This document shows, piece after piece, positions 1 through 28,171 of a DNA stretch of 64,000 nt. Origin of the DNA: Naegleria gruberi (lineage: Eukaryota); the NCBI GenBank assembly GCA_000004985.1, contig GG738877.1, one strand, 5' to 3'. Each line of letters starts with the position of its first letter. Within the stretch, counting starts at the first letter, position 1. The notes under the pieces are model-generated. The model saw only the letters and a list, made by a program, of their open reading frames with translations. It ran no database searches and had not been told where the DNA came from. The position numbers and the translations under genes were made by a program.

Positions 1-333
1 CAAACCCAAACCCAAAGGCAAACCCAAACCCAAACCCAAACCCAAACCCAAACCCAAACCCAAACCCAAACCCAAACCCAAACCCAAACCCAAACCCAAA
101 CCCAAACCCAAACCCAAACCCAAACCCAAATCCAAACCCAAACCCAAACCCAAACCCAAACCCAAACCCAAACCCAAACCCAAACCCAAACCCAAACCCA
201 AACCCAAACCCAAACCCAAACCCAAACCCAAACCCAAACCCAAACCCAAACCCAAACCCAAACCCAAACCCAAACCCAAACCCAAACCCAAACCCAAACC
301 CAAACCCAAACCCAAACCCAAACCCAAACCCAG
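1..333. repeat. Terminal telomeric repeat array (CCCAAA)n, G-strand TTTGGG, with a single variant at ~131
   Basis: Perfect 6-nt periodicity read directly from the sequence. The C-rich strand is on top at the left end, the orientation expected for a left chromosome terminus. Confidence 0.9.
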
Positions 334-699
334 AACTAAAAATAGAATTCTTCTAAACCCAACCTTCAAACCCTAGCCCAAAATTATAAACTTATTCAAA
401 TATCATTAAATTTTATATCATTCGATTGTAAATGATGAGTAGAACAACATGGTATATTTAGTTTTTCAATTTATAAAATATTAACTTTGTAAATAATGTC
501 AGATTAAAATTTGTAAAATGAAACTATAGGAAGAATGATAATTTCAAAATCCTTTAATGAGATTATATAGTCTATATCATCGTTAACAACATTCATAATC
601 ACTTTCATATAAAATTTCAAAAGTTCATGTTGGTAGGTATAAAAGTATCAAGTGAAAAGGGAAGATGTGAGGTAAAAGAGGTCAACAATAACTTTTGAG

Positions 700-1060
700 T
701 TTCTCATCAAAACATATTGAATCCTGACATCAAAATGTTCCATTTGATGAGTAAACATCGAATATCAAATTTATTTTAACTTTAATATTTAAAGATTTCT
801 TCCCTCAATCACACATGGTCTACTTTGATGAAAAGGATGAAACCAACATGATGTAGATGATATATAATGATATAGAATTCAATTTCATATCATAAAAATC
901 AGAAATGGTACCATGGGAAGGTAAATGTTGATATTTTATGATTGACTTTAGAGAAAGACAAGTCACACCAACTCTATCAAATATATCACTTCAATCAACA
1001 AAATATATATGAAAATGCTCCACTCGATGAGTAGAGATAGAATATTAAGTTTATTTTCAC
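700..1060. repeat. Subtelomeric ~50-bp element present in at least two copies (~712-762 and ~997-1060, ~80% identical) with a recurring GATGAGTA core (also near 434, 2517, 3250)
   Basis: Direct comparison: caaaatgttccatttgatgagtaaacatcgaatatcaaatttattttaac versus gaaaatgctccactcgatgagtagagatagaatattaagtttattttcac. Confidence 0.5.
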
Positions 1061-1801
1061 NNNNNNNNNNNNNNNNNNNNNNNNNNNNNNNNNNNNNNNN
1101 NNNNNNNNNNNNNNNNNNNNNNNNNNNNNNNNNNNNNNNNNNNNNNNNNNNNNNNNNNNNNNNNNNNNNNNNNNNNNNNNNNNNNNNNNNNNNNNNNNNN
1201 NNNNNNNNNNNNNNNNNNNNNNNNNNNNNNNNNNNNNNNNNNNNNNNNNNNNNNNNNNNNNNNNNNNNNNNNNNNNNNNNNNNNNNNNNNNNNNNNNNNN
1301 NNNNNNNNNNNNNNNNNNNNNNNNNNNNNNNNNNNNNNNNNNNNNNNNNNNNNNNNNNNNNNNNNNNNNNNNNNNNNNNNNNNNNNNNNNNNNNNNNNNN
1401 NNNNNNNNNNNNNNNNNNNNNNNNNNNNNNNNNNNNNNNNNNNNNNNNNNNNNNNNNNNNNNNNNNNNNNNNNNNNNNNNNNNNNNNNNNNNNNNNNNNN
1501 NNNNNNNNNNNNNNNNNNNNNNNNNNNNNNNNNNNNNNNNNNNNNNNNNNNNNNNNNNNNNNNNNNNNNNNNNNNNNNNNNNNNNNNNNNNNNNNNNNNN
1601 NNNNNNNNNNNNNNNNNNNNNNNNNNNNNNNNNNNNNNNNNNNNNNNNNNNNNNNNNNNNNNNNNNNNNNNNNNNNNNNNNNNNNNNNNNNNNNNNNNNN
1701 NNNNNNNNNNNNNNNNNNNNNNNNNNNNNNNNNNNNNNNNNNNNNNNNNNNNNNNNNNNNNNNNNNNNNNNNNNNNNNNNNNNNNNNNNNNNNNNNNNNN
1801 N
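1061..1801. other. Assembly gap (run of N, 741 nt)
   Basis: Continuous N characters. The ORFs reported across 963-2289 are artefacts of the N run and the hexamer repeat. Confidence 0.97.
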
Positions 1802-2236
1802 GCCCAAACCCAAACCCAAACCCAAACCCAAACCCAGGCCCAAACCCAAACCCAAACCCAAACCCAAACCCAAACCCAAACCCAAACCCAAACCCAAACC
1901 CAAACCCAAACCCAAACCCAAACCCAAACCCAAACCCAAACCCAAACCCAAACCCAAACCCAAACCCAAACCCAAACCCAAACCCAAACCCAAACCCAAA
2001 CCCAAACCCAAACCCAAACCCAAACCCAAACCCAAACCCAAACCCAAACCCAAACCCAAACCCAAACCAAAACCCAAACCCAAACCCAACCCAAACCCAA
2101 ACCCAAACCCAAACCCAAACCCAAACCCAAACCCAAACCCAACCCAAACCCAAACCCAAACCCAAACCCAAACCCAAACCCAAACCCAAACCCAACCCCC
2201 AAACCCAAACCCAAACCCAAACCCAAACCCAAACCC
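1802..2236. repeat. Second, internal (CCCAAA)n telomere-like array with degenerate variants (cccagg at ~1835, aaaacc at ~2066, cccaac at ~2086 and ~2140, ccccc at ~2196)
   Basis: Same hexamer in the same orientation as the terminal array. It lies immediately after the N gap and is followed by unique AT-rich sequence. Confidence 0.85.
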
Positions 2237-2966
2237 CTTGGTATTATGGCAATATTTCTATTGAGTATTGACATTGCAACATTTCCCAAATTGGTAATAT
2301 AGAAAATAAAATCATGATATCAATTATTTGTCGATAAAATGAATAGATATACGATATTATCAAATAAAATATATAGGTCCTTATTGAAAGTGTTTACCTG
2401 GTAAATAGTGAGCGTAACTTCCCCTACTTTCATCCTAATTGATTATCTCCCTATATATATGATAGATTTCAATTATTTCAATTACATATCATAATACATG
2501 ATAATTAGACATGTATCAATGAGTGGAATTAAGTCATGTAAGATATTCATCCTTCAATTACCAATATTGTCATTTTCACACAAGTTGACTTCCTACAGTC
2601 TGAATATGGATCCAGTCATGTCGATTTCAATTTTATATGATTATACTTGATATTTACTACAATATTTATGTGTTTGATTGAATGTTATAGTGTTTCCATA
2701 GTATGGCTCAATATCTTGGTCAATTAAGGTAGAATGAGTACAGTATACTAAGGATATCAAATATTATACTTCCAACAGTTCTACAAGGTAGATATCATCA
2801 TTATACATCATATATATGAGATTGATGATGATTGTAATAACATTCATATTATAGTACAATAAATGTTGAAAAGTTAATTTTTAGACAAGTTGTAATTTAT
2901 TACATATACCGATGCAACATGATTAATTCATAATATCATCTATTCATCTATATATCTACAATATGG

Positions 2967-5381: not shown

Positions 5382-7985
5382 GTGTCTCACACAAGCAAAA
5401 AGAAAAAAATGGCCCAAGTGACACCTCTAGAAGTGGATGAAGTTTACGATGAAGAAGATAATTTTCTACAGGAACAAACTGTGAAGAGCTCGACCAATTG
5501 TTGTTGCTCCATCAACACAGTACTGGTAGCCATGACATCTTTAATAATCCTATTCTGTGTTTTGGTATTATCGGCTGTGTGGGTCTCAGCATTCAGTGTC
5601 CAAGTTGAGGAATTGAGTAATACGGTGAGACAAGAACACTTCGACAATATGTATTCAGCCACAACAGACTATTTGAAAACCATGTTGATAATGACAGAGT
5701 CTGTGAAATCGCAATTGTACACTGGATTTGATTTTAAGAATCAAACTCTCATAGCAGATCACACCTTTAGATTGTACAAGATGGAACGAAAGAATTTGGG
5801 AGATTGGGCACATGCCATGTTTGTTGGTTCTTCTATGGGTGATGCCTTTGGTATTTCCAGTTACAAAAACAATCCAATGTACATGAATATTACATATGGT
5901 CAAAATCAATTATATTGGTTATGTTTAAATTGGCAAAAGTTGGATTATTGCAAGAAAAACTCAACAACTCCAACAATGACTTTAGCTCCATTCAAGAATA
6001 TTCAAATTCTATACAATGCAGCAGCTTCAAATCCAGGTGGTTTTGCGTTTAGTCCTTCATTTATTGATTCAACCCATCCTTCATTGGTTTTGTTTGGTTG
6101 TGTGTCATCTTTTACACAAGGTTACATACCTCCAGGTAAAACCTTTAGTAATTATGTTTCTGTCTTGTTTGGTTCTGCAGAAATTACCAGTTTTCTAGTG
6201 GAAGCTTCATCCTCAATTCCAGGAAGTGTCACTTTTATCATTGAAAGAAACACAACGTACCTGCTCTCAACAGATAATCCTGCAAAGGCAACTGTGAAAT
6301 TCACCAATGGTACGAGTATCAGATATACAGTTAACAATTATGGTGGAAAGGTGTCAGAGATTGGAACTGAAGTAGCTAATCAACTGGGTTCTAAATTTGA
6401 TTCATTACCGTGTAACAATTACACTACACTTATTGTAAAGGGTACATACACCAGTGTCAAGAGACTTTGTACAAGTGAAGGAATTGATTGGTAAGTAGTT
6501 GAATTGAAATATTTCTCAATATTATTTAACACTAAACTTTCAGGGTATTCGTATTGAGTGTACCACAATGGAATTACATTGGATCTATGCTTATTGCCAT
6601 TATCGGTGCAATCGTTGCGTCTGTAATTATCATCTTTTTGGGAATAATCATTGCAGTCTTCTTCTCCTTCAAAATTGTAAAACCATTTAAAAACTTGATA
6701 GCTGCTTTCCAAAATGTATCGAATATGGAATTGGATGATTTGAAATTATACAAGACTTTGTTCTCTGAGGTCAAAACTCTGCAAACTCATTTCGTTGGAA
6801 TGGTTGACAAGATTAAACTTTACAGACAATTCATTCCACCTCATTTGTTAAGTAAATTGGATGATAATGAAGATATAGTACAAGAATCAGCTTCTCAAAT
6901 ATCTGTCAAGAAGGAAGAACCAAAGAGTTTCGCCCACTCCAATAGTGAAACTAAGGTTGACATGTCCAGTAGATCAATAACAACTCCAACAACAAATTCG
7001 AAACTCGATGTCAAGAAACAATTATCTGCCAAGAATATGTTCTCGTTGCACCTTGAGAAGAAACCCATTTCAGTCATTGGTGTCTGTATGCAAGGCATTA
7101 ATAGATGGTTCGTTGATCTAGCTCCTGAAGTGAGTGTTGATTTACTCGGTGGTTTATATGATCAGATTATGCAAATTTCCAAACCAAGTAATGGACAAGC
7201 ATGGAAATTTGAAAATGAAACTTTACTGATAACATTCAATGCATCTACCAATCAAAATGCTCACGAACTCAAATCCATTCAAACTGCATACACTCTATCG
7301 ACAAAACTAAAGGATTATACAAAGGTGAAACTCTTGAAGAATAATGCCTTTGCAGATCAACAAGAATTAACAGTTGACTTTTCTACAAAGATTGCAATTG
7401 CAACACAAGAGTGTCTATGTGGTAATATTGGTACTAAACAAGCAATGAGCTTTTCAATTCAAGGATCCATTCAGCAAAACATTGAAATGTTATTAGAAAC
7501 TGCTATTAGACTTGATATTTCAATTTTATTTGCATCTGAATTGAAATCAAAGGTCGATACCAAATATCAATTTAGATACATTGAAACTAAACAATTACTA
7601 GCCGACAATGTATTTACAGTTCCAGACAGATACAAACAATCGAATATTTTCAAAGAAGATTCATTGTACGAATTGGGTCTTTGTAATCAAGTGAACATGG
7701 ATGGTAAGTATTACAAAATACGTGTGAATAATATTTTAACACCTCTCTCTCAAAACTTTAGAATGGATGTATGAATTGGAAGAAAAGGAAAAGAAAGACA
7801 AGTGGAAGTTTTACAATCAAGCATGTGAATACTATTTCGATAAGGAGTATGATACAGCACTTGAAAGAATTGATGAATATTTGAAAAACTCTGCTAATAG
7901 CACTGATTTGGCAGCTCACAATTTGAGATCAGTGATAATGGATTTACAAGGGAATGCAAATTTCAAACTCAAATCTGTCAAATAA
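5382..7985 (+). CDS. Receptor-type (single-pass, HAMP/signalling-helix) adenylate/guanylate cyclase-like protein with a degenerate cyclase-homology domain. Exons 5382..6490, 6544..7703, 7762..7985
   Basis: N-terminal TM, ~300-aa extracellular region and a second TM (MLIAIIGAIVASVIIIFLGIIIAVFF). The pre-cyclase signalling helix is LKLYKTLFSEVKTLQTHFVGMVDKIKLYRQFIPPHLL, and the CHD-like region is ISVIGVCMQG...ETLLITFNAS...KIAIATQECLCGNIGTK. The metal-binding Asp positions are substituted. Introns gtaagtag..tttcag (6491-6543) and gtaagtatt..ctttag (7704-7761) join the three ORFs in frame. Confidence 0.6.
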
Positions 7986-8095: not shown

Positions 8096-10144
8096 TTATA
8101 GAGTTATTTTGAAAACTTCAATTTCCTCAACTCTGAACTGGTGACTTCCAGCCAAATAACTTTCAGTTTGTTCATTTCTTTCTTGGAATCCTTTTGGCAA
8201 TTCAAAAGCTATACCAAAATTGGATTTTGAATTGTAGTTTAAATTGCAATCACTTGAAATTGTAAAATCATGACCTGGTTTGAGTAACATAACACCAAAG
8301 GTTGGTAATAAACCTTCTTGTAAAACGGTAGCATTCCGCAATGTAAAGGAACTTCTCTTGAATTTATGAAATTGTGCTCCTGATTCCTTTACAAATTTGA
8401 AAATAAATGCTGAACTATCTTCCACAACTTCTCTTTGTTTAGGAGATTTCCATGATTTTGAAGTAAAACCACCGAATATTTGATTGTGCTCTGCCGATTT
8501 GATAATTGTCAAAGTTGCACCTTGGTTATCACACTTTGAATGAAAGTCAATTGCTTTAAAACCATCCCTTGATCCTCTGTATAATAATTGTGGAACTAAT
8601 TGAGTGCCAGTATTCGAATACAATTCTTTTGAAATGGTGTCTGAATTCGTATCATCATAATAAATTTCATTAATAATATTAGATATCAAAGTGAAAGGAA
8701 TGAAACCCTTAATATTTGTGAAAACATTACTTGTTCCTTTTAAGGAAGTTAAAAGTTGAAATTCAACTTGTTCAAAACTACTTCCTTTAAAAGAAGATAA
8801 ATCTGTCACTTCTCTCAAATCTGCATTCTTGATAGTACAATTATTGAATACATTACCATTCATCAAATTTACATTTTCCAAGTTGCAATCTCTAATATTT
8901 GAACCAGTGAAATCACAAGATTTCATAAAACTGTTTGAAAAATTACAACCACTCAATTCACAATTTTGAAAATTGGTGTTTGATAAAGTGCAATGATTGA
9001 AATCACACCCTTTCAGATTACTTCCTTGAAATTGTGTCAAATTCAAATCCATTCCACTGAAATCATATCCACAAAATTCAGTCCCACGTAGATTGGAATA
9101 TTGAAGTAAATTCTTTCGAAGGTGTTGAATGCCAAATTGTTGACATGAACCAGCAAGCAATAGTTTAAATTTAACATCAATGCTCTTTTCCACAATTCCA
9201 AACTTTAGCCAATTAAGGATTGAATAAAATACAGTTAAATCACAATCAATGAAATAAATTGGGGCATCGAATTTTGAATTAAAAGATGTTTGATAACATG
9301 GATATTCACCTGTGAACATTTTCTTGAATACATTGTCAGATTCTCTGTCATTATGAATGAAATCTCCCAATGCAACTGTAATGACAGTTCCTCTGACATT
9401 TAAGTGAATTGGTTTGTTGCAATTTTCCAATTTCTCTCTAGTATAAACTTGGTTCGCAAAGTTTTTCTCTTTCAATTCCAATTGTTGAGTCAATATTTCA
9501 TTTCTTTGATTCCATTCTTGAAGCAACGTTTCTTTCTTTTCATTGAAACCACTTGTAATTTCCTCAACAAGTTTTTTGGTATCATTAGTCAACTTTTGAT
9601 TCAATTCTTCATATTTCCTTTCCAACTCATCTGATTTTTCTTGATAATCTTGTTGTAAACTCTTGAGTTTTTCTTGATAATCACCCTCAAGTTTCCTCTT
9701 TAATTCATCTGCCTCAAAATACGCCTCCAGAAAGGAGCAATACTTTTCCTGGTGGATTTTCAATTCTCCCCTCAAGACTACATTCTTACACATTCGACAT
9801 TGAACTTCCAATTTGTCCAACATGTTTTTAATACTCTTCACACTTGAACAATTCTTCTTGAAATCTTCACCTCTACAAATTGGACAATCATGAACATTTT
9901 CAACACAGGTGGAACAGAAGGTGCTGCCACAAGATCCGTGTGAGGTTGGATCGATAAAGGGAAGAAAACAAATGGGACAAATTAATTCTTCATCAATGTT
10001 CTTGTCGATGTATATGTATTGTGGATCTAGAGAAGAGGAGGAATCAGTATTCTCTGCACTTAAAGTGCTTTCATTATGCACTTGAGAATTGACTTTCATG
10101 TATTGCAACGAGATTGTTTTTTTTCCATAATTATTTGTTTCCAA
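8096..10144 (-). CDS. Multidomain RING finger - TRAF-type zinc finger/coiled coil - BTB/POZ (KCTD/T1-type) - pentapeptide-repeat - TLDc protein (KCTD9-like core)
   Basis: CPICFLPF...CPICR RING motif. The BTB region NVRGTVITVALGDF...YFIDCDLTVFYSILNWLKFG is present. Pentapeptide repeats (CDFNHCTLSNTNFQNCELSGCNFSNS...) follow. The C-terminal TLDc signature is LLYRGSRDGFKAIDFHSKCDNQGATLTIIKSAEHNQIFGGFTSKSW. Confidence 0.75.
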   Translation of the reverse strand: METNNYGKKTISLQYMKVNSQVHNESTLSAENTDSSSSLDPQYIYIDKNIDEELICPICFLPFIDPTSHGSCGSTFCSTCVENVHDCPICRGEDFKKNCSSVKSIKNMLDKLEVQCRMCKNVVLRGELKIHQEKYCSFLEAYFEADELKRKLEGDYQEKLKSLQQDYQEKSDELERKYEELNQKLTNDTKKLVEEITSGFNEKKETLLQEWNQRNEILTQQLELKEKNFANQVYTREKLENCNKPIHLNVRGTVITVALGDFIHNDRESDNVFKKMFTGEYPCYQTSFNSKFDAPIYFIDCDLTVFYSILNWLKFGIVEKSIDVKFKLLLAGSCQQFGIQHLRKNLLQYSNLRGTEFCGYDFSGMDLNLTQFQGSNLKGCDFNHCTLSNTNFQNCELSGCNFSNSFMKSCDFTGSNIRDCNLENVNLMNGNVFNNCTIKNADLREVTDLSSFKGSSFEQVEFQLLTSLKGTSNVFTNIKGFIPFTLISNIINEIYYDDTNSDTISKELYSNTGTQLVPQLLYRGSRDGFKAIDFHSKCDNQGATLTIIKSAEHNQIFGGFTSKSWKSPKQREVVEDSSAFIFKFVKESGAQFHKFKRSSFTLRNATVLQEGLLPTFGVMLLKPGHDFTISSDCNLNYNSKSNFGIAFELPKGFQERNEQTESYLAGSHQFRVEEIEVFKITL

Positions 10145-15343: not shown

Positions 15344-17200
15344 ATGTTGCAACAACAACTCAATCAGACGAACCATTGCACTGTAGTGTTGCATCTAGAT
15401 TTGTACTTTTCATCCAATTTACTCTCCACTAAAATACAATCCATTCCTCTCCGATATAAATATGACTTGATCATGAAACCAATTTTGAAATATTACAATT
15501 CCGATAATGATGATTATGATTATGATGATGATTTCGATATTAACGATCCAATTTGCCTCCTTCAAGGACTTTTATTAAAAATTGATGTTATTCGAGATAA
15601 AAGGTATATTTACGATCAAATAATAGAGTACAAATGGGTTGCTTGTAGTTTTAGAGAGGATTTTGGGTTATTGAACGATAGAGATTTGGCCATGAAACAT
15701 GCAAGTATTGGCATTATTGTTGAGGAATTTAACAATGACAGAGAAATTGTAATGAATGCTGTGAAAGAAACAGGAAATGGACTTTCGTATGCTTCAGAAG
15801 AATTGAGGAATGATTTTGAATTTGTGAGTGAATTGTTGGAACATGTTAATGTTTTGAATGAGGCATCAGAGGAATTGAGAGATAATAAGGAACTTGTAAT
15901 GTCACTTGTAAAACATTGTGGAGAGGCTCTTGAATATGCTTCTGATCGATTGAGAAATGATTTTGATGTTGTGTTGGCAGCTGTCAAACAAAATGGACGA
16001 GCTCTCGCATTCACAACAATAGAACTACGGAGCAATAAGGAAATTATATTGGCAGCTTTGCAATCATTTTCGCATGCATGTAAAATTGCAATATTGGACT
16101 CATTTACAAATGATAGAGATTTTATGTTTAAAGTATCTTTAGAGGATGTGTATATACTAAGGAAAGCATCTCAAGAAATTAGAAACGATAGAGAAATATT
16201 CCTCAATGCAGTTAAAATTTCTCCATACATATTCAGGGATACTTCAGATGAATTGAGGAATGATAGAGAACTAGCCATCTTGGCAATACAATCGGAGCCA
16301 TCAATGTTAGAATATGCATCAGATAATTTGAAAGATGATGAGGAAATTGTTGCATTGGCACTTTCTTCTGATGGACGTGCAATTAGACATGTATCAGACA
16401 GATTAAGAAATGATGTTGAATTTCTTCAGAAAATATTCCATAGTAGTAAGAGTGGGACAATATTGAAATATATTCCAGAAATACTCAAAAGTGATAGAGA
16501 TATCGTATTGGAATCTGTTAAACGTGATGGATACAATTTGGAACATGCCTCAAATGAACTGAAACTTGATAGAGAAATAGTATGGGAAGCAGTGAAATCA
16601 GCAACCACAGCTATACAATTTGTACCTCAAGAATTATTAAGAGAAGCCTTTATTCATGCACTTCAATTCCGTGGTGAACATTGGGACTATGATTTTTTCG
16701 AATTTGCACCTCCTGAATTCAAGAACGACAGAGAAATAGCATTAACATATGTCAAATATCATCAACGAGCACTATCCCATTTAAGCAATCAGTTTAGAGC
16801 TGATAGAGAAATAGTGTTGGAAGCTGTAAAACATTTTGGACCAAACGTACTTGAATTGGTAGATGCTCAATTCAAAAACGATATTGAAATAGTCAACTTG
16901 GCAAGAAGTAAAGGAGCTCTTACAAAATTATCAATTGAAGACCATTCAAACAGAGAAAAAGTTCTTCAAGCTTTCAAAGATGAAATAGACATTGAATATC
17001 TTACAACCTCTTTGAAGAATGACAGAGAGATTGCCATTGGATGTGTAAAGCAAAATGGATTTTGGTTACAGTATTTACCTTACAAATTTAGAAGTGATAG
17101 AGAAATAGTATTACTTTCATTTAGAGATACTAAAAGTTTAAATCACATGTCTTTGAAGTTGAGAAATGATAAGGAAATTTTAGAAAAATCGAAAAGGTGA
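15344..17200 (+). CDS. DUF4116-type tandem-repeat protein (~24-aa repeats, xELRNDREIVLxAVKQNGxALxYAS). The alternative start MKPILKYY is at 15473
   Basis: More than 15 consecutive repeats with an invariant (L/F)RNDRE(I/L) core are read directly in the ORF. Confidence 0.7.
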   Translation: MLQQQLNQTNHCTVVLHLDLYFSSNLLSTKIQSIPLRYKYDLIMKPILKYYNSDNDDYDYDDDFDINDPICLLQGLLLKIDVIRDKRYIYDQIIEYKWVACSFREDFGLLNDRDLAMKHASIGIIVEEFNNDREIVMNAVKETGNGLSYASEELRNDFEFVSELLEHVNVLNEASEELRDNKELVMSLVKHCGEALEYASDRLRNDFDVVLAAVKQNGRALAFTTIELRSNKEIILAALQSFSHACKIAILDSFTNDRDFMFKVSLEDVYILRKASQEIRNDREIFLNAVKISPYIFRDTSDELRNDRELAILAIQSEPSMLEYASDNLKDDEEIVALALSSDGRAIRHVSDRLRNDVEFLQKIFHSSKSGTILKYIPEILKSDRDIVLESVKRDGYNLEHASNELKLDREIVWEAVKSATTAIQFVPQELLREAFIHALQFRGEHWDYDFFEFAPPEFKNDREIALTYVKYHQRALSHLSNQFRADREIVLEAVKHFGPNVLELVDAQFKNDIEIVNLARSKGALTKLSIEDHSNREKVLQAFKDEIDIEYLTTSLKNDREIAIGCVKQNGFWLQYLPYKFRSDREIVLLSFRDTKSLNHMSLKLRNDKEILEKSKR

Positions 17201-21764: not shown

Positions 21765-23321
21765 TTGCACAAAACATTTAAAAAACCCTCGAGAAGAATC
21801 ACCAAACCACAACATCAAAAAATGACTCAAGATAATTCCACACAACAACCAACTCAGATTCGTATAGTTTCTCCAACCACGATGACGAGTCCAACCACAC
21901 TCACTTCTCAAACTTCTCAAGACCCATTCTTCGAGTCATCTGGTAGTCCAACCCTTCCAAAGAAGAATTCCATGTCTGGTAAACGATCTGTAGTTTCCAA
22001 GTCCAACCCATCCTCAACAAAAACTCCACTTTCGTCCTCAATCACAAAATTCTACAATCGTGCATGTAAAATTCACACCTGTTGTGGTATTATGGAATTT
22101 AACTGTCTCAAGTTGACAAGCATGTTAGCATTAGCCGTCAGCTTGACTGCCTTTACATTTCTCATAGTTATCATTGCACTTAACTATTCAGTTGTTACTG
22201 ACATTAGTTCGAGAATTGGCGTGCTTCAAACTGATGCAACTTACTATAGAGAAATGATGAAAATGGCAAGTAGAATTGCAGCTGACAGTGAATACAACAG
22301 AACTATTGCTTTAGAATATGTTGATATCTATCAAAATTGTTTTGATAATTATTACAAATCTATTAATTCACTTTATATAGTTGTGCCATCAGAAGTTATT
22401 CCATACATTAGAATGAATATCAGTAGAGAGGAGACCATGTCGAGAAGAGCTGTAAAGTCAGAGCTTGCTGCTCTTGAGCTTGTCAAAACTTTCAATTATT
22501 CTGGCGCAAAGTTTATTCTAGATTCGGATAATTACAATTATTTACTGACAGGTTATTCTAGTGAAGTTCAACCAGTTTTGGACTATGCACAGGCTGTGAG
22601 TGATGGATATGCTAATGCTGACCTTGCTGTCACTACTACTTCTCTAGTTGTCATTGCAGTTTCAATGGCAATTGTCATTCCTATCATGATTGTTTTCGTT
22701 TGTCTTTCAGTGACAAAAGACACCTCAAAGGAAAAGCAATTACGACAAGTAAGAAAATATCTCTTAATAGATACCATCAATGATTCAGTTCTCTGTGAAA
22801 AATTCAAAGAATTTTGTAAACTCGAAAGAAGCGAAGAAAATTTTGCAGTTTTGGAAAAAATTAACGATTACAAAAAATTATGTCAGAGAAGTTTTGATAT
22901 TCAAGTAGTTCTGTATGATAATGATGAGTTGAGTGGTTCAGATATGGTTTCTGATACGACTACCTCCAGTAACGAAACAACAGATTCGAAAAAGAAAAAG
23001 AATAAGAAAGGTTTCACCGAAAAGGATTTATTCGAAATTGAAAAGAAAAAGTTTGAGTTGGCATTCGAAGTGTTTACTGATTATTTAGATGTCAGAGGTG
23101 ATCATTCGATTAATATTAATAAGAATTTGGCAGATAAGGTGAAACAGTTTTTGGATTTCTTTGCAAAGGGAGAAAACGAAAGTTTACCTGAAAGTTTATT
23201 CGATGCTATTGAAACTGATGTTAGTATTCTAATGATGGATACTCATCATAGATTCAAAGCCATGATTGAAATTCAAATTAAAGAAAAGAAGAAGGTACTT
23301 TCGAATAGAAAAAGAAAATAA
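21765..23321 (+). CDS. Two-TM membrane protein with a C-terminal RGS (regulator of G-protein signalling) domain. The start may be the MTQDN Met at ~21822
   Basis: Hydrophobic segments MLALAVSLTAFTFLIVIIAL and LVVIAVSMAIVIPIMIVFVCL. The RGS signature is FKEFCKLERSEENFAVLEKINDYKKL ... KKFELAFEVFTDYL. Confidence 0.6.
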   Translation: MHKTFKKPSRRITKPQHQKMTQDNSTQQPTQIRIVSPTTMTSPTTLTSQTSQDPFFESSGSPTLPKKNSMSGKRSVVSKSNPSSTKTPLSSSITKFYNRACKIHTCCGIMEFNCLKLTSMLALAVSLTAFTFLIVIIALNYSVVTDISSRIGVLQTDATYYREMMKMASRIAADSEYNRTIALEYVDIYQNCFDNYYKSINSLYIVVPSEVIPYIRMNISREETMSRRAVKSELAALELVKTFNYSGAKFILDSDNYNYLLTGYSSEVQPVLDYAQAVSDGYANADLAVTTTSLVVIAVSMAIVIPIMIVFVCLSVTKDTSKEKQLRQVRKYLLIDTINDSVLCEKFKEFCKLERSEENFAVLEKINDYKKLCQRSFDIQVVLYDNDELSGSDMVSDTTTSSNETTDSKKKKNKKGFTEKDLFEIEKKKFELAFEVFTDYLDVRGDHSININKNLADKVKQFLDFFAKGENESLPESLFDAIETDVSILMMDTHHRFKAMIEIQIKEKKKVLSNRKRK

Positions 23322-24146: not shown

Positions 24147-26161
24147 ATGACTTCAAAACTCTTAGAAGAAAGATATCGTGAAGCACTCAGAGAATTGTCC
24201 GTCTCCTCCCGAGACAATATGATGTGTGTTGATTGTATGAGCAAGAAGAAGACCTCCTTCATTGTTCTCCAATTTCAAAGTTATATTTGTGAGATGTGTG
24301 CCGATGTACATCGAACATATGGTCATCGTGGAGTAAAACAAATTGGATTATCCAATGTTACTAAAGAAGAGGTTGAAGAGATGAGACAAGGTGGTAATCA
24401 AAAGGTTAAAGCCGCTTGGTATGGTGGAAATTATGATCAAATTGTTCGTCCAAATCCTGAAACATGTGCCTCCGATAAGGAATTTAAAGAAAAGGCTAAA
24501 GAACACATCAAGAAGGTTTATATTCAAAGACTTTATAAGACTGGTGGTGGTTCTACTCCTGGAAATGTTGGTAATTCCAATACAACCACTACTACTAATA
24601 CAAATCAACAATCTTCGACTCCTATCGGATCAAATAATAATAATCAACAAATGCCATACAATAACGTTCAATACAATAATGGAGGCATTGATACTAGAAC
24701 AAGAGGTGCTAGTTTGAATACTACACAATATGCTAATTTGAAGACAACCAATTCAGCTTCAATTATTCAATCATCAAATATTAGTGGTTGGTTGGTAATG
24801 GTAATGGTGGTGGTAACAAGAATAATGATTTGATTTCATTTGGTGGAAGTGATTCTCAACCTGTACAATCTGTGATGAGTAGTTTTAATCAACCACCAAA
24901 GCAACAACCACAACAACAACAACCAATGATGAATCAACAACCACCACAACAACAATATGGTCAACCACAAATGATGAATCAACCACAATATGGTAATAAC
25001 AATAATTATCCACCAAATAATAATTATAATAATAATTACAATAATAACTTTAATCAAGGAATGTCATATGGAAACAATCAAATGATGAATAATAATGGTG
25101 GTTATGGTGGTTATAACAATAATAACATGATGAATCAACAACAACCAATGATGAACAATGGTTATAACAATAATTATGGATACAACAATAATGGCATGAT
25201 GAATCAACAACAACCAATGATGAACAACAATAATGGTATGATGAATCAAAATTATGGTTATGGTCAACAACCACAACAATATAACAACATGAACAATAAC
25301 TATAATAACAATATGGGTTATGGTCAACCACAAGGAATGCAATACGGAAACAACAATCAACAACCAATGATGAATAACAGTAGACCACAAATTTCCTCTC
25401 CACCACAAACTCCACCTGTTAATAATAATAATAACAACAACTATGGAATGACACCAACCAATGTAAATATTAGTCCAAGACAACCATCCCAACCATCCAT
25501 GCCTATCAATCCTATGGGATACAATAATCAATATGGTACTCCAATGACTCCAAGTCAACCACCTCAATCTACTATTACTCCTGTCAATCCATACGTTGGC
25601 ACTTCACCAAGAAGTAATAACATTCCAACTCCACCTCCAACCAATCTTAATGTTGTTTCTCCATCAAGAAGTGCAAGCATGCCTCCAAAGTCAACTCCTC
25701 CATCATTTGGTTCAACAAGTACCATTAATCAACCTCCTACTTCTGTTCCACCAAGACAACCATCCCAACCAGTTAGAACTCCATCAATGGCTTCATCAAC
25801 AATATCAGTTCCAAGAAAAGAGGGTAATAATGATAGTTTGTCAAACCAATTCAACAACATGTCTCTTTCATCATCAACCAAGCCAGTCACCACTTCAACA
25901 GTTCCAAAGAGTACTCCACCATCTACTGCTACCACTTCCACTTCCACAACAGGTCAAAAGCCACCTGTAGGAGTTACTAGTGGTGCTGGTCTTCTTGTTG
26001 GTTCAACTAAAAAGATTGATTCTTCAGAATTTGAAAAGGCAACCACAACTGGTGTACATATGGACGATCTTCGTGGTAATGCCAGTAAGGACAATACTAA
26101 ATTCAAGGAAATCAATCCAAACAGAGTCATTCCATTGAAGCAAACTACTGAATGGCAATAA
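24147..26161 (+). CDS. ArfGAP-domain protein of the AGFG/HRB type with a very long N/Q/M/P-rich (prion-like, FG-nucleoporin-like) tail. It is encoded by two overlapping ORFs (24147..24833 and 24788..26161) offset by -1
   Basis: The ArfGAP zinc finger is CVDCMSKKKTSFIVLQFQSYICEMCADVHRTYGHRGVKQIGLSNVTKEEVEEMRQGGNQKVKAAW. The second ORF continues the N/Q-rich composition. No GT..AG intron fits the junction. Confidence 0.6.
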
Positions 26162-26206: not shown

Positions 26207-28171
26207 TTAATCCAAATCAGTAATATATGTTTGTTTAGGAATCACACAAATGCCATTCTTTTCCAACAATACTTCCTCATCTTGCTTGTAATACTCAACA
26301 AACATTTCCACAATATTCTGAGCTCGCAAAGTATTGAAGGTATCACTAGTGATGTGAACTTGATTTGGTTTTCCAGTTGCCTCAATCAATTGAGTAGTGG
26401 CCACTTCAGGACCAAACAAATCATAAGTTCTCTTTGTCTTTCCAACCACTGCTGCAAAAACTTGATTATTATTTGATGTGTGAATTCCAATTCTGACCTG
26501 AATGCTTCCACACTCAATGTCCTTCTTCTTTTCCATCACTGATTTCAATTCCTTGATCATTAATATACCTGCCTTAACACAGTGATCAGCATGTGTCAAA
26601 CCATTCGAACTGTCAATGATGGTTGGCACTTGAGGTCCCCTCTTCTTTTCCTTATATAATCCACTACCAACAAAGTAACAATCTCCAATGGTTTTAATCT
26701 TTTCCAATCCTTCAACTTGTTTTCCATAGACAATATCATCGAATGCAGAGAAGATTTCATGCAAGAGTTTCACAATTTCTGATGGAGGTTTTCCATTAGA
26801 AAGTGCAGTAAATCCAACGATATCACAATACATGAGTGAACATGTTGGAATGGTATCGAATACAGTTTGACCCATTGTTAAACGTTGTACAACATTTTTT
26901 GGAAAGATCTTTTCAGTAATCTTGTTCATTTGTTCTTCTTTTGTGACCATTTGTTTGGCATCACGAATGAAAGCAACAAAGGACGAAACTGAGGTTAATG
27001 GATCGATTATTTCAGAAACTCTGAGCTCAATTCGAACAGATTTACCACTCTTATTGACTGCTTTGAGTGCACGTACTTGATCTACGACTCGTTTCAGATA
27101 GCCATCATGAAGATTTCTAATTTTGGAAGGTACCAACATTTTGATATTCTTACCAACAATTTCTTTTCTCTGATATTGAAATGTTGTGGTAGATGCCTTA
27201 TTGAATATCAAAACAGTTCCCTTATCATTAATTCCAATAATTGGAACAACCGAAAGGTCAGTAATTGTTTCGGCAAATTGAATCGAAGCAAGTTTTTGAG
27301 CATCTTCTTGGGATTGCTTCATTGGTTGCATATACATGGCAAAGTGAATTTGATTTAGCTTATTAAGGACTACCAAATTCGTCTTCATTTGAAAAATTCG
27401 TTTTTCTGTCACTGATTTTCCTGTCAATTGTCGAGATTTCTTTAATTCATCACGTCTCTTTTGTTTTTCTTCCGGAGTGATCAGAGAAATTGGTAGAATC
27501 ACATTCGCCACATTATTCAGTGCTTGAATTTGTGGATTATTTTCAAAAGTTTCTTCATCCATTCCAATATAATTTTCAATTAAACTTCGAACATCCATTG
27601 TCGATTCTGCTGACAGCACCTCACTCAAATATTCACCCATAATTGAGAAGGTAAATAATCCAAATAAATCTTCAGCTTCTCTATTTAAATATTCGATTGT
27701 CAAATTCGAATCGAATATTAATATTGGAAATCCACATGTATAAAGTTGATTCACTAGCACATTCAATTCCAAATAATCTTCTACTCTTGTACTTGGATAC
27801 AAATCTTCAAAATCCTGACCTTCCATCCCAGAAGAAGCTGACGAAGTTGACTGAGTGAAAGATGACATTGAGCTACGCATTGATTGTTCACTTGCTAAAG
27901 ATTCTTTAGTTCTGGATCTTTGAAGATTTCCAACAAATCGTGAACTAATACCTCTATTTAATTGATTTCTGGATTTTCTATGTAAATTTGACATTGAGGA
28001 ACGATTAGAATCACTGATTACTGACATGTTGTCATCACTTGATTTCTTTTCGTATGACATTCGAAGTTGAGCAAGTGGAGGATTAGGAGTTAGAAGAGTG
28101 GGGGATGATAGTTTGCTGGCATCTTCCTCTGGTTCTGGTAGATCTTTATGTTTGAGAAAACGTTTAATCAT
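26207..28171 (-). CDS. Class III nucleotidyl (adenylate/guanylate) cyclase with a PAS-like domain
   Basis: The cyclase catalytic core has both metal-binding Asp residues: YCDIVGFTALS, KTIGDCYFVGSGL, RIGIHTSNNNQVFAAVVG, YDLFGPEV. An upstream PAS-like segment is VPIIGINDKGTVLIFNKASTTTFQYQRKEIVGKNIKMLVPSKIRNLHDGYLKRV. Confidence 0.8.
   Translation of the reverse strand: MIKRFLKHKDLPEPEEDASKLSSPTLLTPNPPLAQLRMSYEKKSSDDNMSVISDSNRSSMSNLHRKSRNQLNRGISSRFVGNLQRSRTKESLASEQSMRSSMSSFTQSTSSASSGMEGQDFEDLYPSTRVEDYLELNVLVNQLYTCGFPILIFDSNLTIEYLNREAEDLFGLFTFSIMGEYLSEVLSAESTMDVRSLIENYIGMDEETFENNPQIQALNNVANVILPISLITPEEKQKRRDELKKSRQLTGKSVTEKRIFQMKTNLVVLNKLNQIHFAMYMQPMKQSQEDAQKLASIQFAETITDLSVVPIIGINDKGTVLIFNKASTTTFQYQRKEIVGKNIKMLVPSKIRNLHDGYLKRVVDQVRALKAVNKSGKSVRIELRVSEIIDPLTSVSSFVAFIRDAKQMVTKEEQMNKITEKIFPKNVVQRLTMGQTVFDTIPTCSLMYCDIVGFTALSNGKPPSEIVKLLHEIFSAFDDIVYGKQVEGLEKIKTIGDCYFVGSGLYKEKKRGPQVPTIIDSSNGLTHADHCVKAGILMIKELKSVMEKKKDIECGSIQVRIGIHTSNNNQVFAAVVGKTKRTYDLFGPEVATTQLIEATGKPNQVHITSDTFNTLRAQNIVEMFVEYYKQDEEVLLEKNGICVIPKQTYITDLD

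What the first reader, a model, noticed from the sequence alone, without database searches (positions are those of the whole stretch)
26207..28171. A PAS-cyclase has both metal-binding Asp residues but not the N/R pair, so it may pair with the degenerate receptor cyclase ~18 kb away
In this ORF the class III motifs YCDIVGFT and IGDCYFV (both Asp) are intact. By my manual alignment, however, the region corresponding to GDTVNxASRME reads GPEVATTQLIEATG (N to A, R to L). That is the C1-like half of a heterodimeric cyclase. The receptor-like protein at 5382-7985 keeps the Asn but lacks the Asp residues, which is C2-like. Two half-competent cyclase-homology proteins in one neighbourhood could form a single composite active site, as in mammalian AC C1/C2 or sGC alpha/beta. 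In that case a PAS sensor would be coupled to a membrane receptor.
Basis: inference. Interest (0 to 1): 0.55.

Follow-up and report, generated by a model that had tools for sequence, protein, structure and literature searches.

The report
Half-equipped PAS cyclase, unrelated degenerate neighbour

Summary
The window is Naegleria gruberi. ORF 26207-28171 (minus strand, 654 aa) has the order PAS-A, FixL-type PAS-B, transducer helix, class III cyclase domain (CHD).

- **Catalytic residues.** HMM alignments confirm D450 and D497 (metal) and K493 and D584 (base). The canonical Asn and Arg columns hold A591 and L595.
- **C1-like character.** The CHD scores higher against C1 than C2 in 108 of 108 animal adenylyl cyclases. 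All 11 Naegleria/Willaertia homologues lack Asn/Arg, so the state is old and conserved.
- **The receptor (5409-7985, three exons).** It is a real but Pfam-invisible CHD protein: a double-Cache ectodomain, two TM helices, then a degenerate CHD of bacterial IIIb type. It is not C2-like. Asp1 is Cys542, Asp2 is Glu586, and the canonical Asn and Arg columns hold Gln672 and Met676. A conserved Asn673 sits one residue out of register, and there is no Arg in either register. It belongs to a Naegleria family of more than 50 sequence clusters.
- **Proximity.** Seven unrelated genes lie between the two, and Naegleria has 80 or more cyclase genes, so closeness carries no weight.

The C1-like reading stands. 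Pairing with this neighbour is unsupported. The real partner, if there is one, is unidentified.

The parts
26207..28171 (-). PAS-cyclase CDS. Single exon, 654 aa, identical to P0001 (N. gruberi predicted protein).
   Evidence: ORF listing. 100% identity and coverage to the NCBI protein.
27578..27730 (-). PAS-A (aa 148-198, partial PAS_4 match).
   Evidence: Pfam PF08448, E=7.4e-10.
26960..27268 (-). PAS-B (aa 302-404), FixL/DosP-type. The putative haem-ligating His355 is at 27107-27109. An 8-aa deletion follows 'HDGYL' relative to the paralogues.
   Evidence: Pfam PAS, E=2.5e-16. phmmer against FixL 1d06 gives E=6.4e-10 with 'HDGYL' aligned to FixL 'HDGYL'. H355 is invariant in A1.
26852..26959 (-). 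Linker or transducer helix (aa 405-440, 'KEEQMNKITEKIFPKNVVQRL') leading into the CHD.
   Evidence: PDB alignments to sGC alpha/beta, NPR-A and Rv1625c begin at query residues 402-414, upstream of the CHD. Its function is inferred.
26315..26851 (-). Class III cyclase homology domain (aa 441-619), C1-like.

- D450: 26822-26824
- K493: 26693-26695
- D497: 26681-26683
- D584: 26420-26422
- A591 (Asn column): 26399-26401
- L595 (Arg column): 26387-26389
   Evidence: PF00211, E=2.6e-34. Residue alignments to AC5/8/9. Codon check. C1 scores above C2 in 108 of 108 tmACs.
5409..7985 (+). Receptor gene. Three exons (5409-6490, 6544-7703, 7762-7985), 821 aa, identical to P0121.
   Evidence: Splice model built. 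It matches the NCBI protein at 100% identity and coverage.
5556..6490 (+). Extracellular double-Cache (dCache) ligand-binding domain, lying between TM1 (about aa 31-50) and TM2 (about aa 371-392, in exon 2).
   Evidence: AF2 model with pLDDT 88.9 and pTM 0.85. Foldseek top hits are the dCache domains of PctD, Tlp3, TlpQ and PctA, E down to 3.6e-9. TM positions come from a hydropathy scan.
7028..7702 (+). Degenerate class III CHD (aa 523-747).

- C542 at the Asp1 column
- K582 at the Lys column
- E586 at the Asp2 column
- S665 at the Asp/Thr column
- Q672 at the Asn column, with N673 one residue later
- M676 at the Arg column, with L677 one residue later
   Evidence: Profile search of 1.84e9 proteins, where 56 of 60 distant hits carry PF00211. 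hhalign 99.9%. Foldseek hits class III cyclases. Column table. Codon check.

Best explanation
The ORF encodes a soluble signalling protein of a family specific to Naegleria and Willaertia. Its order is PAS-A, a FixL-type (probably haem-binding, gas- or redox-sensing) PAS-B, a transducer helix, and a class IIIa cyclase domain.

**What the domain keeps and lacks.** It keeps the residues that a C1 or sGC-alpha half-site contributes: both metal Asp and the DIVGFT phosphate loop. It has lost the Asn/Arg pair that the opposite subunit must contribute.

**Consequence for a homodimer.** Both symmetric sites of a homodimer would lack the ribose-orienting Asn and the transition-state Arg. That should make it poorly active.

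**Most likely working mode (inferred, not shown).** The protein acts as the Asp-donating subunit of a heterodimer. The partner would be another of Naegleria's many CHD proteins, one that retains Asn/Arg. The signal would come from PAS-B through the helix.

**Partner identity.** The partner is not identified. It is not the dCache receptor at 5409-7985, which is a separate pseudo-cyclase receptor lacking the Arg.
For: - **Residue set.** D450, D497, K493 and D584 are present; the Asn and Arg columns hold A591 and L595.
- **Conservation.** The same pattern holds in all 11 heterolobosean homologues at about 40-48% identity. D497, K493 and D584 are invariant, D450 is nearly invariant, the Arg column is almost always hydrophobic, and the Asn column varies. 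The nearest outgroup, P0012, keeps 'DTVNLASRME'. The loss is therefore ancient and the Asp pair has stayed under constraint.
- **Overall C1 and alpha similarity.**
- **PAS-B.** It aligns to FixL, EcDOS and DosP with the F-alpha His conserved. That His is described as the primary determinant of haem binding (PMC10468136).
- **Against the neighbour as partner.**
Against: - No C2- or beta-like partner was found.
- Every PAS-PAS-CHD homologue recovered is C1-like. There is therefore no sGC-style paralogous partner with the same architecture among the hits. The searches were capped, however, and could not survey the N. gruberi proteome.
- PAS and helix modules usually drive homodimers.
- K493 and D584 are kept. 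That fits a homodimer still using them in trans, although mammalian C1 keeps the same two positions.
- In P0001 specifically, an 8-aa deletion next to the haem His and a 15-aa insertion in the CHD could indicate a diverging paralogue.
Confidence: 0.4

Rival explanations
1. The protein is a homodimeric pseudo-cyclase or a very weak cyclase. It dimerises with itself, binds metal-ATP through the retained Asp, Lys and Asp residues, and turns over slowly or not at all. It would then act as a nucleotide- or gas-dependent scaffold or switch.
For: - Both transition-state residues are absent in the whole family.
- No complementary partner was recovered.
- PAS plus helix architectures are typically homodimeric (general knowledge).
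- Naegleria already has another large family of degenerate CHDs, so pseudo-cyclases are tolerated.
Against: - The metal Asp pair and the DIVGFT loop remain invariant or nearly so at about 40% overall identity.
- In the clearly degenerate receptor family the first Asp is gone.
- Retention of the pair suggests that catalysis, not just binding, is under selection.
Confidence: 0.3
2. The protein is a fully functional homodimeric adenylyl cyclase. Other residues substitute for Asn/Arg, or they are dispensable in this lineage.
For: - All of the residues that bind metal and adenine are kept: D450, D497, K493 and D584.
- The outgroup P0012 shows that the ancestor was a complete homodimer-type enzyme.
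Against: - No conserved polar or basic residue replaces them in helix alpha4. The Asn column varies (A/L/E/T/S) and the Arg column is almost always hydrophobic.
- To my knowledge no natural class III cyclase is active without this Arg, and Asn/Arg mutants of tmAC and Rv1625c lose most of their activity. This rests on background knowledge and was not tested here.
Confidence: 0.2
3. The PAS-cyclase (C1-like) heterodimerises with the neighbouring dCache receptor (C2-like) to form one composite active site, coupling a cytosolic PAS sensor to a membrane receptor.
For: - The receptor domain is a genuine CHD.
- It has a Lys at the substrate position (K582) and a family-conserved Asn673 near the Asn column.
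- The CHD interface is known to be promiscuous (PMC3591389).
Against: - The receptor has no Arg in either register (M676 or L677). Asn673 is one residue off the canonical column, and Ser665 sits at the Asp/Thr position.
- The two CHDs belong to different subclasses, IIIb-like versus IIIa-like.
- The receptor has its own membrane-anchored module, HAMP-like by sequence inspection only, and a low-complexity insert of about 55 aa before the CHD.
- Seven unrelated genes lie between the two.
- The known paralogues of the two families sit on different scaffolds, judged from the contig lengths. A related PAS-cyclase locus has no receptor-like gene within about 5-7 kb.
- With roughly 100 or more CHD genes in an approximately 41 Mb genome, a second CHD gene within about 20 kb is expected by chance for more than 10% of them (my estimate).
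Confidence: 0.04

Closest known systems
Soluble guanylyl cyclase alpha subunit and the C1 domain of animal transmembrane adenylyl cyclases
   Same: - It is a class IIIa CHD that keeps both metal-binding Asp but lacks the Asn/Arg pair.
- It is preceded by PAS and helical transducer modules, as in sGC.
- It scores better against C1 and alpha than against C2 and beta.
   Different: - No beta- or C2-type partner is known.
- The sensor is a FixL-type PAS rather than an H-NOX domain.
- The base-recognition residues are adenine-type Lys/Asp, not Glu/Cys.
- It is a single-CHD protein from a heterolobosean amoeba.
FixL / EcDOS (DosP) haem-PAS oxygen sensors
   Same: PAS-B aligns at E=6e-10 to 1e-8. The 'HDGYL' F-alpha histidine motif and the 'F.GFIRD' strand are conserved.
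   Different: - The output is a cyclase domain rather than a histidine kinase or a c-di-GMP phosphodiesterase.
- P0001 lacks 8 residues of the FG loop that its paralogues and FixL keep.
- Haem binding is untested.
Rv1625c-type homodimeric class IIIa cyclases
   Same: It has a single CHD with a transducer helix. The spacing of the six catalytic columns is the same. From background knowledge, engineered Asp-minus and Arg-minus mutants of Rv1625c complement each other as heterodimers.
   Different: Rv1625c carries all six residues in one chain and is active as a homodimer. Here the Asn/Arg pair is naturally missing.
Bacterial dCache/CHASE2-HAMP class IIIb adenylyl cyclases, and the single 'bacterial-type Cache adenylate cyclase' reported for Naegleria (PMC4822843). 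This comparison is for the receptor gene.
   Same: - The architecture is two TM helices, an extracellular dCache domain, a membrane-proximal HAMP-like segment, then a CHD.
- The nearest recognisable relatives are bacterial HAMP/CHASE2/dCache cyclases.
   Different: - The CHD is catalytically degenerate: no Asp1 and no Arg.
- Neither domain is detected by Pfam.
- It belongs to a Naegleria expansion of more than 50 clusters, not a single gene.

Membership tests
Class III nucleotidyl cyclase catalytic domain (PF00211): PAS-cyclase | Significant match to the family profile, above the curated cut-off | tested here: met
   118.9 bits against a cut-off of 21.9, E=2.6e-34.
Class III nucleotidyl cyclase catalytic domain (PF00211): PAS-cyclase | Two metal-binding Asp | tested here: met
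   D450 and D497 align to the C1 Asp pair.
Class III nucleotidyl cyclase catalytic domain (PF00211): PAS-cyclase | Transition-state Asn and Arg, which make up the full homodimer complement | tested here: not met
   A591 and L595 occupy these columns.
Heterodimeric C1/C2 (sGC alpha/beta-type) cyclase, with the neighbouring receptor as partner | One half has the Asp pair and lacks Asn/Arg (C1-like) | tested here: met
Heterodimeric C1/C2 (sGC alpha/beta-type) cyclase, with the neighbouring receptor as partner | The partner half supplies Asn, Arg and the base-recognition residues (C2-like) | tested here: not met
   The receptor has Q672/M676 at the canonical columns. N673 is off by one residue. 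There is no Arg in either register, and S665 sits at the Asp/Thr position.
Heterodimeric C1/C2 (sGC alpha/beta-type) cyclase, with the neighbouring receptor as partner | The partners share dimerisation modules or lie on one polypeptide | tested here: not met
   One protein is soluble PAS-PAS-helix. The other is dCache-TM-HAMP-like with a low-complexity insert. The CHDs are of different subclasses.
Heterodimeric C1/C2 (sGC alpha/beta-type) cyclase, with the neighbouring receptor as partner | Physical heterodimer with activity that depends on both chains | not testable with these tools
   This needs co-expression and enzyme assays.
FixL/DosP-type haem-PAS domain (PAS-B) | Sequence homology with a conserved F-alpha proximal His | tested here: met
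   FixL 1d06 at E=6.4e-10, with HDGYL aligned. H355 is invariant in the family.
FixL/DosP-type haem-PAS domain (PAS-B) | Intact FG loop after the His, and actual haem binding | tested here: inconclusive
   P0001 has an 8-aa deletion at this point that is absent from its paralogues. Haem binding cannot be tested here.
Class III CHD: receptor C-terminal domain | Homology and fold | tested here: met
   - There is no Pfam hit.
- A profile search reaches PF00211 proteins at E of 1e-9 to 1e-13.
- hhalign gives 99.9%.
- Foldseek hits class III cyclases at E=1.5e-8.
Class III CHD: receptor C-terminal domain | Catalytic residue complement | tested here: not met
   The six columns read C542, E586, K582, S665, Q672 and M676. 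This makes it a pseudo-cyclase.
dCache_1 extracellular sensor: receptor ectodomain | Double PAS-like module on a long N-terminal helix, lying between two TM helices | tested here: met
   AF2 pLDDT 88.9. Foldseek hits PctD, Tlp3, TlpQ and PctA. The Pfam dCache model does not detect it.

The most novel reading that the evidence does not exclude
Naegleria may run a combinatorial receptor-cyclase system. In this reading the many dCache pseudo-cyclase receptors are ligand-gated, non-catalytic partners. They would heterodimerise through their CHDs with soluble CHDs that carry the Asp pair, such as this haem-PAS cyclase. An extracellular ligand and an intracellular gas or redox signal would then be integrated at one composite, possibly non-canonical, active site.
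Probability: 0.05. Interest if true: 0.75.

Novelty: new variant of a known kind. Interest (0 to 1): 0.33.

Why it matters
If the PAS-cyclases really are obligate Asp-donor subunits, Naegleria would have evolved an sGC-like, gas-sensing heterodimeric cyclase independently of animals. Its input domain would be a FixL-type haem-PAS.

That would help explain how a facultatively anaerobic amoeba with 80-100 cyclase genes wires oxygen or redox sensing to cAMP.

Separately, the neighbour reveals a large eukaryotic family of dCache receptors with dead cyclase domains. Pfam does not detect the family. The searchable literature credits Naegleria with a single Cache protein.

Both points can be tested with simple recombinant assays. 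As it stands, the specific pairing in the finding is not supported, and the proteins are ordinary members of Naegleria's expanded cyclase repertoire.

Tried and rejected
- **Shallow comparisons of the receptor domain.** A direct HMM or hhalign comparison against a PAS-CHD/tmAC profile, using only 4 receptor sequences, was inconclusive: hmmsearch E=0.22 and hhalign probability 15%. The full profile search and the 52-sequence family were needed.\n- **Synteny and co-occurrence.** The look-up of encoding contigs had no record for the N. gruberi paralogues P0002 and P0122. The P0005 contig (14 kb) has no receptor-like gene. The P0124 contig is too short. Flanks are capped at 10 kb, so an 18 kb linkage could not be tested properly.\n- **Search for a PAS-sharing C2-like partner.** A search with only the PAS region returned 3 proteins and did not recover even the known family. 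I treat it as uninformative.\n- **Other CHDs in the window.** Six-frame scans with three CHD profiles found only the two genes.\n- **Literature.** Searches found nothing on these proteins or on Naegleria cyclases lacking Asn/Arg.\n- **Rejected: the missing Asn/Arg is an intron or gene-model artefact.** The region is one continuous ORF with matching motifs on both sides, and the same state occurs in 11 homologues.\n- **Rejected: the receptor 'CHD' is a chance resemblance.**
Full report
**Source and gene models**

Both proteins named in the finding are 100% identical over their full length to NCBI 'predicted protein [Naegleria gruberi]' entries on a 394,700-bp scaffold. The window is therefore nuclear DNA of a heterolobosean amoeba. 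It has about 34% GC, short introns and no operons.

The PAS-cyclase is a single exon on the minus strand at 26207-28171 (654 aa). The receptor is a three-exon gene on the plus strand: 5409-6490, 6544-7703 and 7762-7985. I derived the model from GT..AG introns, and it reproduces the 821-aa database protein exactly.

**Checking the observation**

Pfam finds PF00211 at aa 441-619 (E=2.6e-34) and PAS domains at aa 148-198 and 302-404.

phmmer alignments to solved adenylyl cyclases put 'MYCDIVGFT' on the first metal-Asp motif and 'KIKTIGDCYF' on the second. They put 'YDLFGPEVATTQLIEATG' on AC5 C2 'YDIWGNTVNVASRMDSTG'. This gives:

- D450 and D497 as the metal ligands
- K493 and D584 as the base-recognition residues
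- A591 in the Asn column
- L595 in the Arg column

The codons were verified. The spacings (K to D = 4, D to Asn column = 7, Asn column to Arg column = 4) are the canonical class III spacings, from background knowledge of Rv1625c numbering.

**The Asn/Arg loss is a family trait**

The state is not a private defect of this gene. Eleven PAS-PAS-CHD homologues all lack Asn/Arg. They comprise five from N. gruberi, three from N. fowleri, one each from N. lovaniensis and Willaertia magna, and one environmental sequence, at 39-48% identity.

D497, K493 and D584 are invariant and D450 is nearly so. The Asn column is variable (A/L/E/T/S), and the Arg column is almost always hydrophobic, L, I or M. The next relative, P0012 (33% identity, unknown organism), keeps 'DTVNLASRME'.

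The CHD is also C1-like overall. In 108 of 108 animal tmACs it scores higher against C1 (mean 71 bits) than against C2 (45 bits). In the PDB search, C1 of AC5/8/9 and sGC alpha1 outscore C2 and beta1.

**The sensor**

PAS-B aligns to RmFixL (E=6.4e-10), EcDOS and DosP. 'RNLHDGYL' sits on FixL 'RHEHDGYL', which places it on the F-alpha proximal histidine. H355 is invariant in the family. That histidine is described as the primary determinant of haem binding in this PAS cluster (PMC10468136).

P0001 alone lacks 8 residues immediately after this motif. Its paralogues and FixL keep them. Haem binding is an inference.

**The receptor**

Pfam sees nothing in it, even at E<=1, and a shallow hhalign was inconclusive. 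Four deeper tests were decisive:

- A profile of its C-terminal domain, searched against 1.84 billion representatives, found 1798 hits. There are 43 at E<=1e-30, which form its own family. Distant hits lie at 1e-9 to 1e-13, and 56 of 60 of these carry PF00211, mostly with CHASE2, HAMP or dCache domains.
- Family-versus-canonical hhalign gives probability 99.9%, E=5.7e-36.
- An AF2 model of the domain has a core pLDDT of 75-89. Its 50 best PDB matches are all class III cyclases, led by OaPAC, CyaB, Cya2 and CyaC.
- The ectodomain model (pLDDT 88.9) matches dCache chemoreceptor sensor domains such as PctD, Tlp3, TlpQ and PctA.

The protein is therefore dCache, TM, a HAMP-like segment, then a CHD. 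The HAMP-like label comes from sequence inspection only.

Named family members are all from N. gruberi, N. fowleri or N. lovaniensis. The usual layout is two TM helices about 330 aa apart. [quoted passage not shown] The family found here is much larger but is not detected by current models.

**Can the receptor complement the PAS-cyclase?**

| Canonical column | Residue in the window's receptor | Family pattern (52 sequences) |
|---|---|---|
| Asp1 | C542 | Y/H/L/K |
| Lys | K582 | mostly S/N |
| Asp2 | E586 | D or E in 33 of 52 |
| Asp/Thr | S665 | T in 27, S in 13 |
| Asn | Q672 | variable |
| Arg | M676 | R or K in 15 of 52 |

The strongly conserved N673 (46 of 52) lies one residue after the Asn column. 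If a one-residue shift is allowed so that N673 plays the Asn role, the Arg column becomes L677, which is L or M in 46 of 52.

In neither register does this protein have the Arg. A composite site would still lack the transition-state Arg.

The receptor CHD is of the bacterial IIIb-like type, while the PAS-cyclase CHD is IIIa-like. [quoted passage not shown] These two proteins share no such modules.

**Neighbourhood**

Seven genes lie between the two (for the first six, for the last):

- a TLDc/pentapeptide/RING protein
- a PUF protein
- a DUF4116-repeat protein
- a kinesin
- a 3-beta-HSD-like dehydrogenase
- an RGS-domain protein
- an N/Q-rich ORF

Six-frame scans find no other CHD in the window. 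Naegleria species have 80 or more cyclase genes (PMC9283941; PMC9928731), plus the degenerate family described here. My rough estimate for a genome of about 41 Mb is that more than one CHD gene in ten has another within about 20 kb by chance. Proper synteny tests were not possible.

**Interpretation**

The Asp pair has been retained while Asn/Arg were lost, across a family that diverged to about 40% identity. That is the signature of an Asp-donating half-site such as C1 or sGC alpha.

By analogy with the inactive sGC alpha2 and beta2 homodimers, I think the most likely mode is heterodimerisation with an Asn/Arg-bearing CHD protein that has not been identified (confidence 0.4). The rivals are:

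- a weak or dead homodimer (0.3)
- a homodimer that is active despite the loss (0.2)
- pairing with the neighbouring receptor (about 0.04)

No partner was found. All recovered homologues with the same architecture are C1-like, which weakens an sGC-style paralogue-pair model. The tools could not survey the Naegleria proteome.

**Verdict**

The C1-like reading is reasonable and turns out to be a family-wide trait. The proposed coupling to the receptor 18 kb away is not supported.

Two by-products are worth noting: a likely haem-PAS input domain, and a large Naegleria family of dCache pseudo-cyclase receptors that Pfam does not detect. Interest is moderate to low. This is a new variant of known kinds and not a new kind of system.

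Noticed in passing
window 26960-27268 (-), His355 codon at 27107-27109: PAS-B of the cyclase is FixL/DosP-type, with the proximal-His motif 'HDGYL' conserved. The family is probably a haem-based gas or redox sensor. This paralogue alone has an 8-aa deletion directly after the motif.
   Followed up: partly
window 5556-6490 (+); related proteins P0122-P0176: The receptor ectodomain is a high-confidence dCache fold. With its degenerate CHD it defines a Naegleria multigene family of more than 50 clusters at 50% identity. Pfam detects neither domain. A 2016 survey reported only one Cache protein in Naegleria.
   Followed up: partly
related proteins P0129, P0136, P0154-P0156, P0161, P0162, P0173: A subset of the receptor family carries an 'N-L-x-R' motif. 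This places an Arg in the canonical Arg column, three residues after the conserved Asn rather than four. These members might retain partial transition-state chemistry. The window's copy has Met at that position.
   Followed up: no
window about 6870-7030 (+): A low-complexity, Ser/Thr/Lys-rich insert of about 55 aa separates the conserved 'LYRQFIPPHLLSKL' helix from the first strand of the receptor CHD. In ordinary cyclases this helix runs straight into the CHD.
   Followed up: no
window 7762-7985 (+): The third exon of the receptor encodes a 74-aa helical tail ('EWMYELEEKEKKDKWKFYNQACEYYF...') that is conserved in paralogue P0122. It looks TPR-like by eye but has no Pfam hit.
   Followed up: no
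window 24788-26161 (+): A 457-aa ORF extremely rich in Asn, Gln and Pro ends 46 bp from the 3' end of the PAS-cyclase gene, in convergent orientation. No function was assigned.
   Followed up: no
window 1-2300: This stretch has very low GC (0.23) with strong strand asymmetry (GC skew -0.57, AT skew +0.40). Long ORFs overlap in several frames on both strands, which is typical of a simple-sequence or repeat tract rather than genes.
   Followed up: no
window 8096-10144 (-), 15344-17200 (+), 21765-23321 (+): Three neighbouring genes have unusual domain content: a RING plus pentapeptide-repeat plus TLDc protein, a protein made of 12 DUF4116 repeats, and an RGS-domain protein. None is linked to the cyclases by any evidence here.
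   Followed up: no
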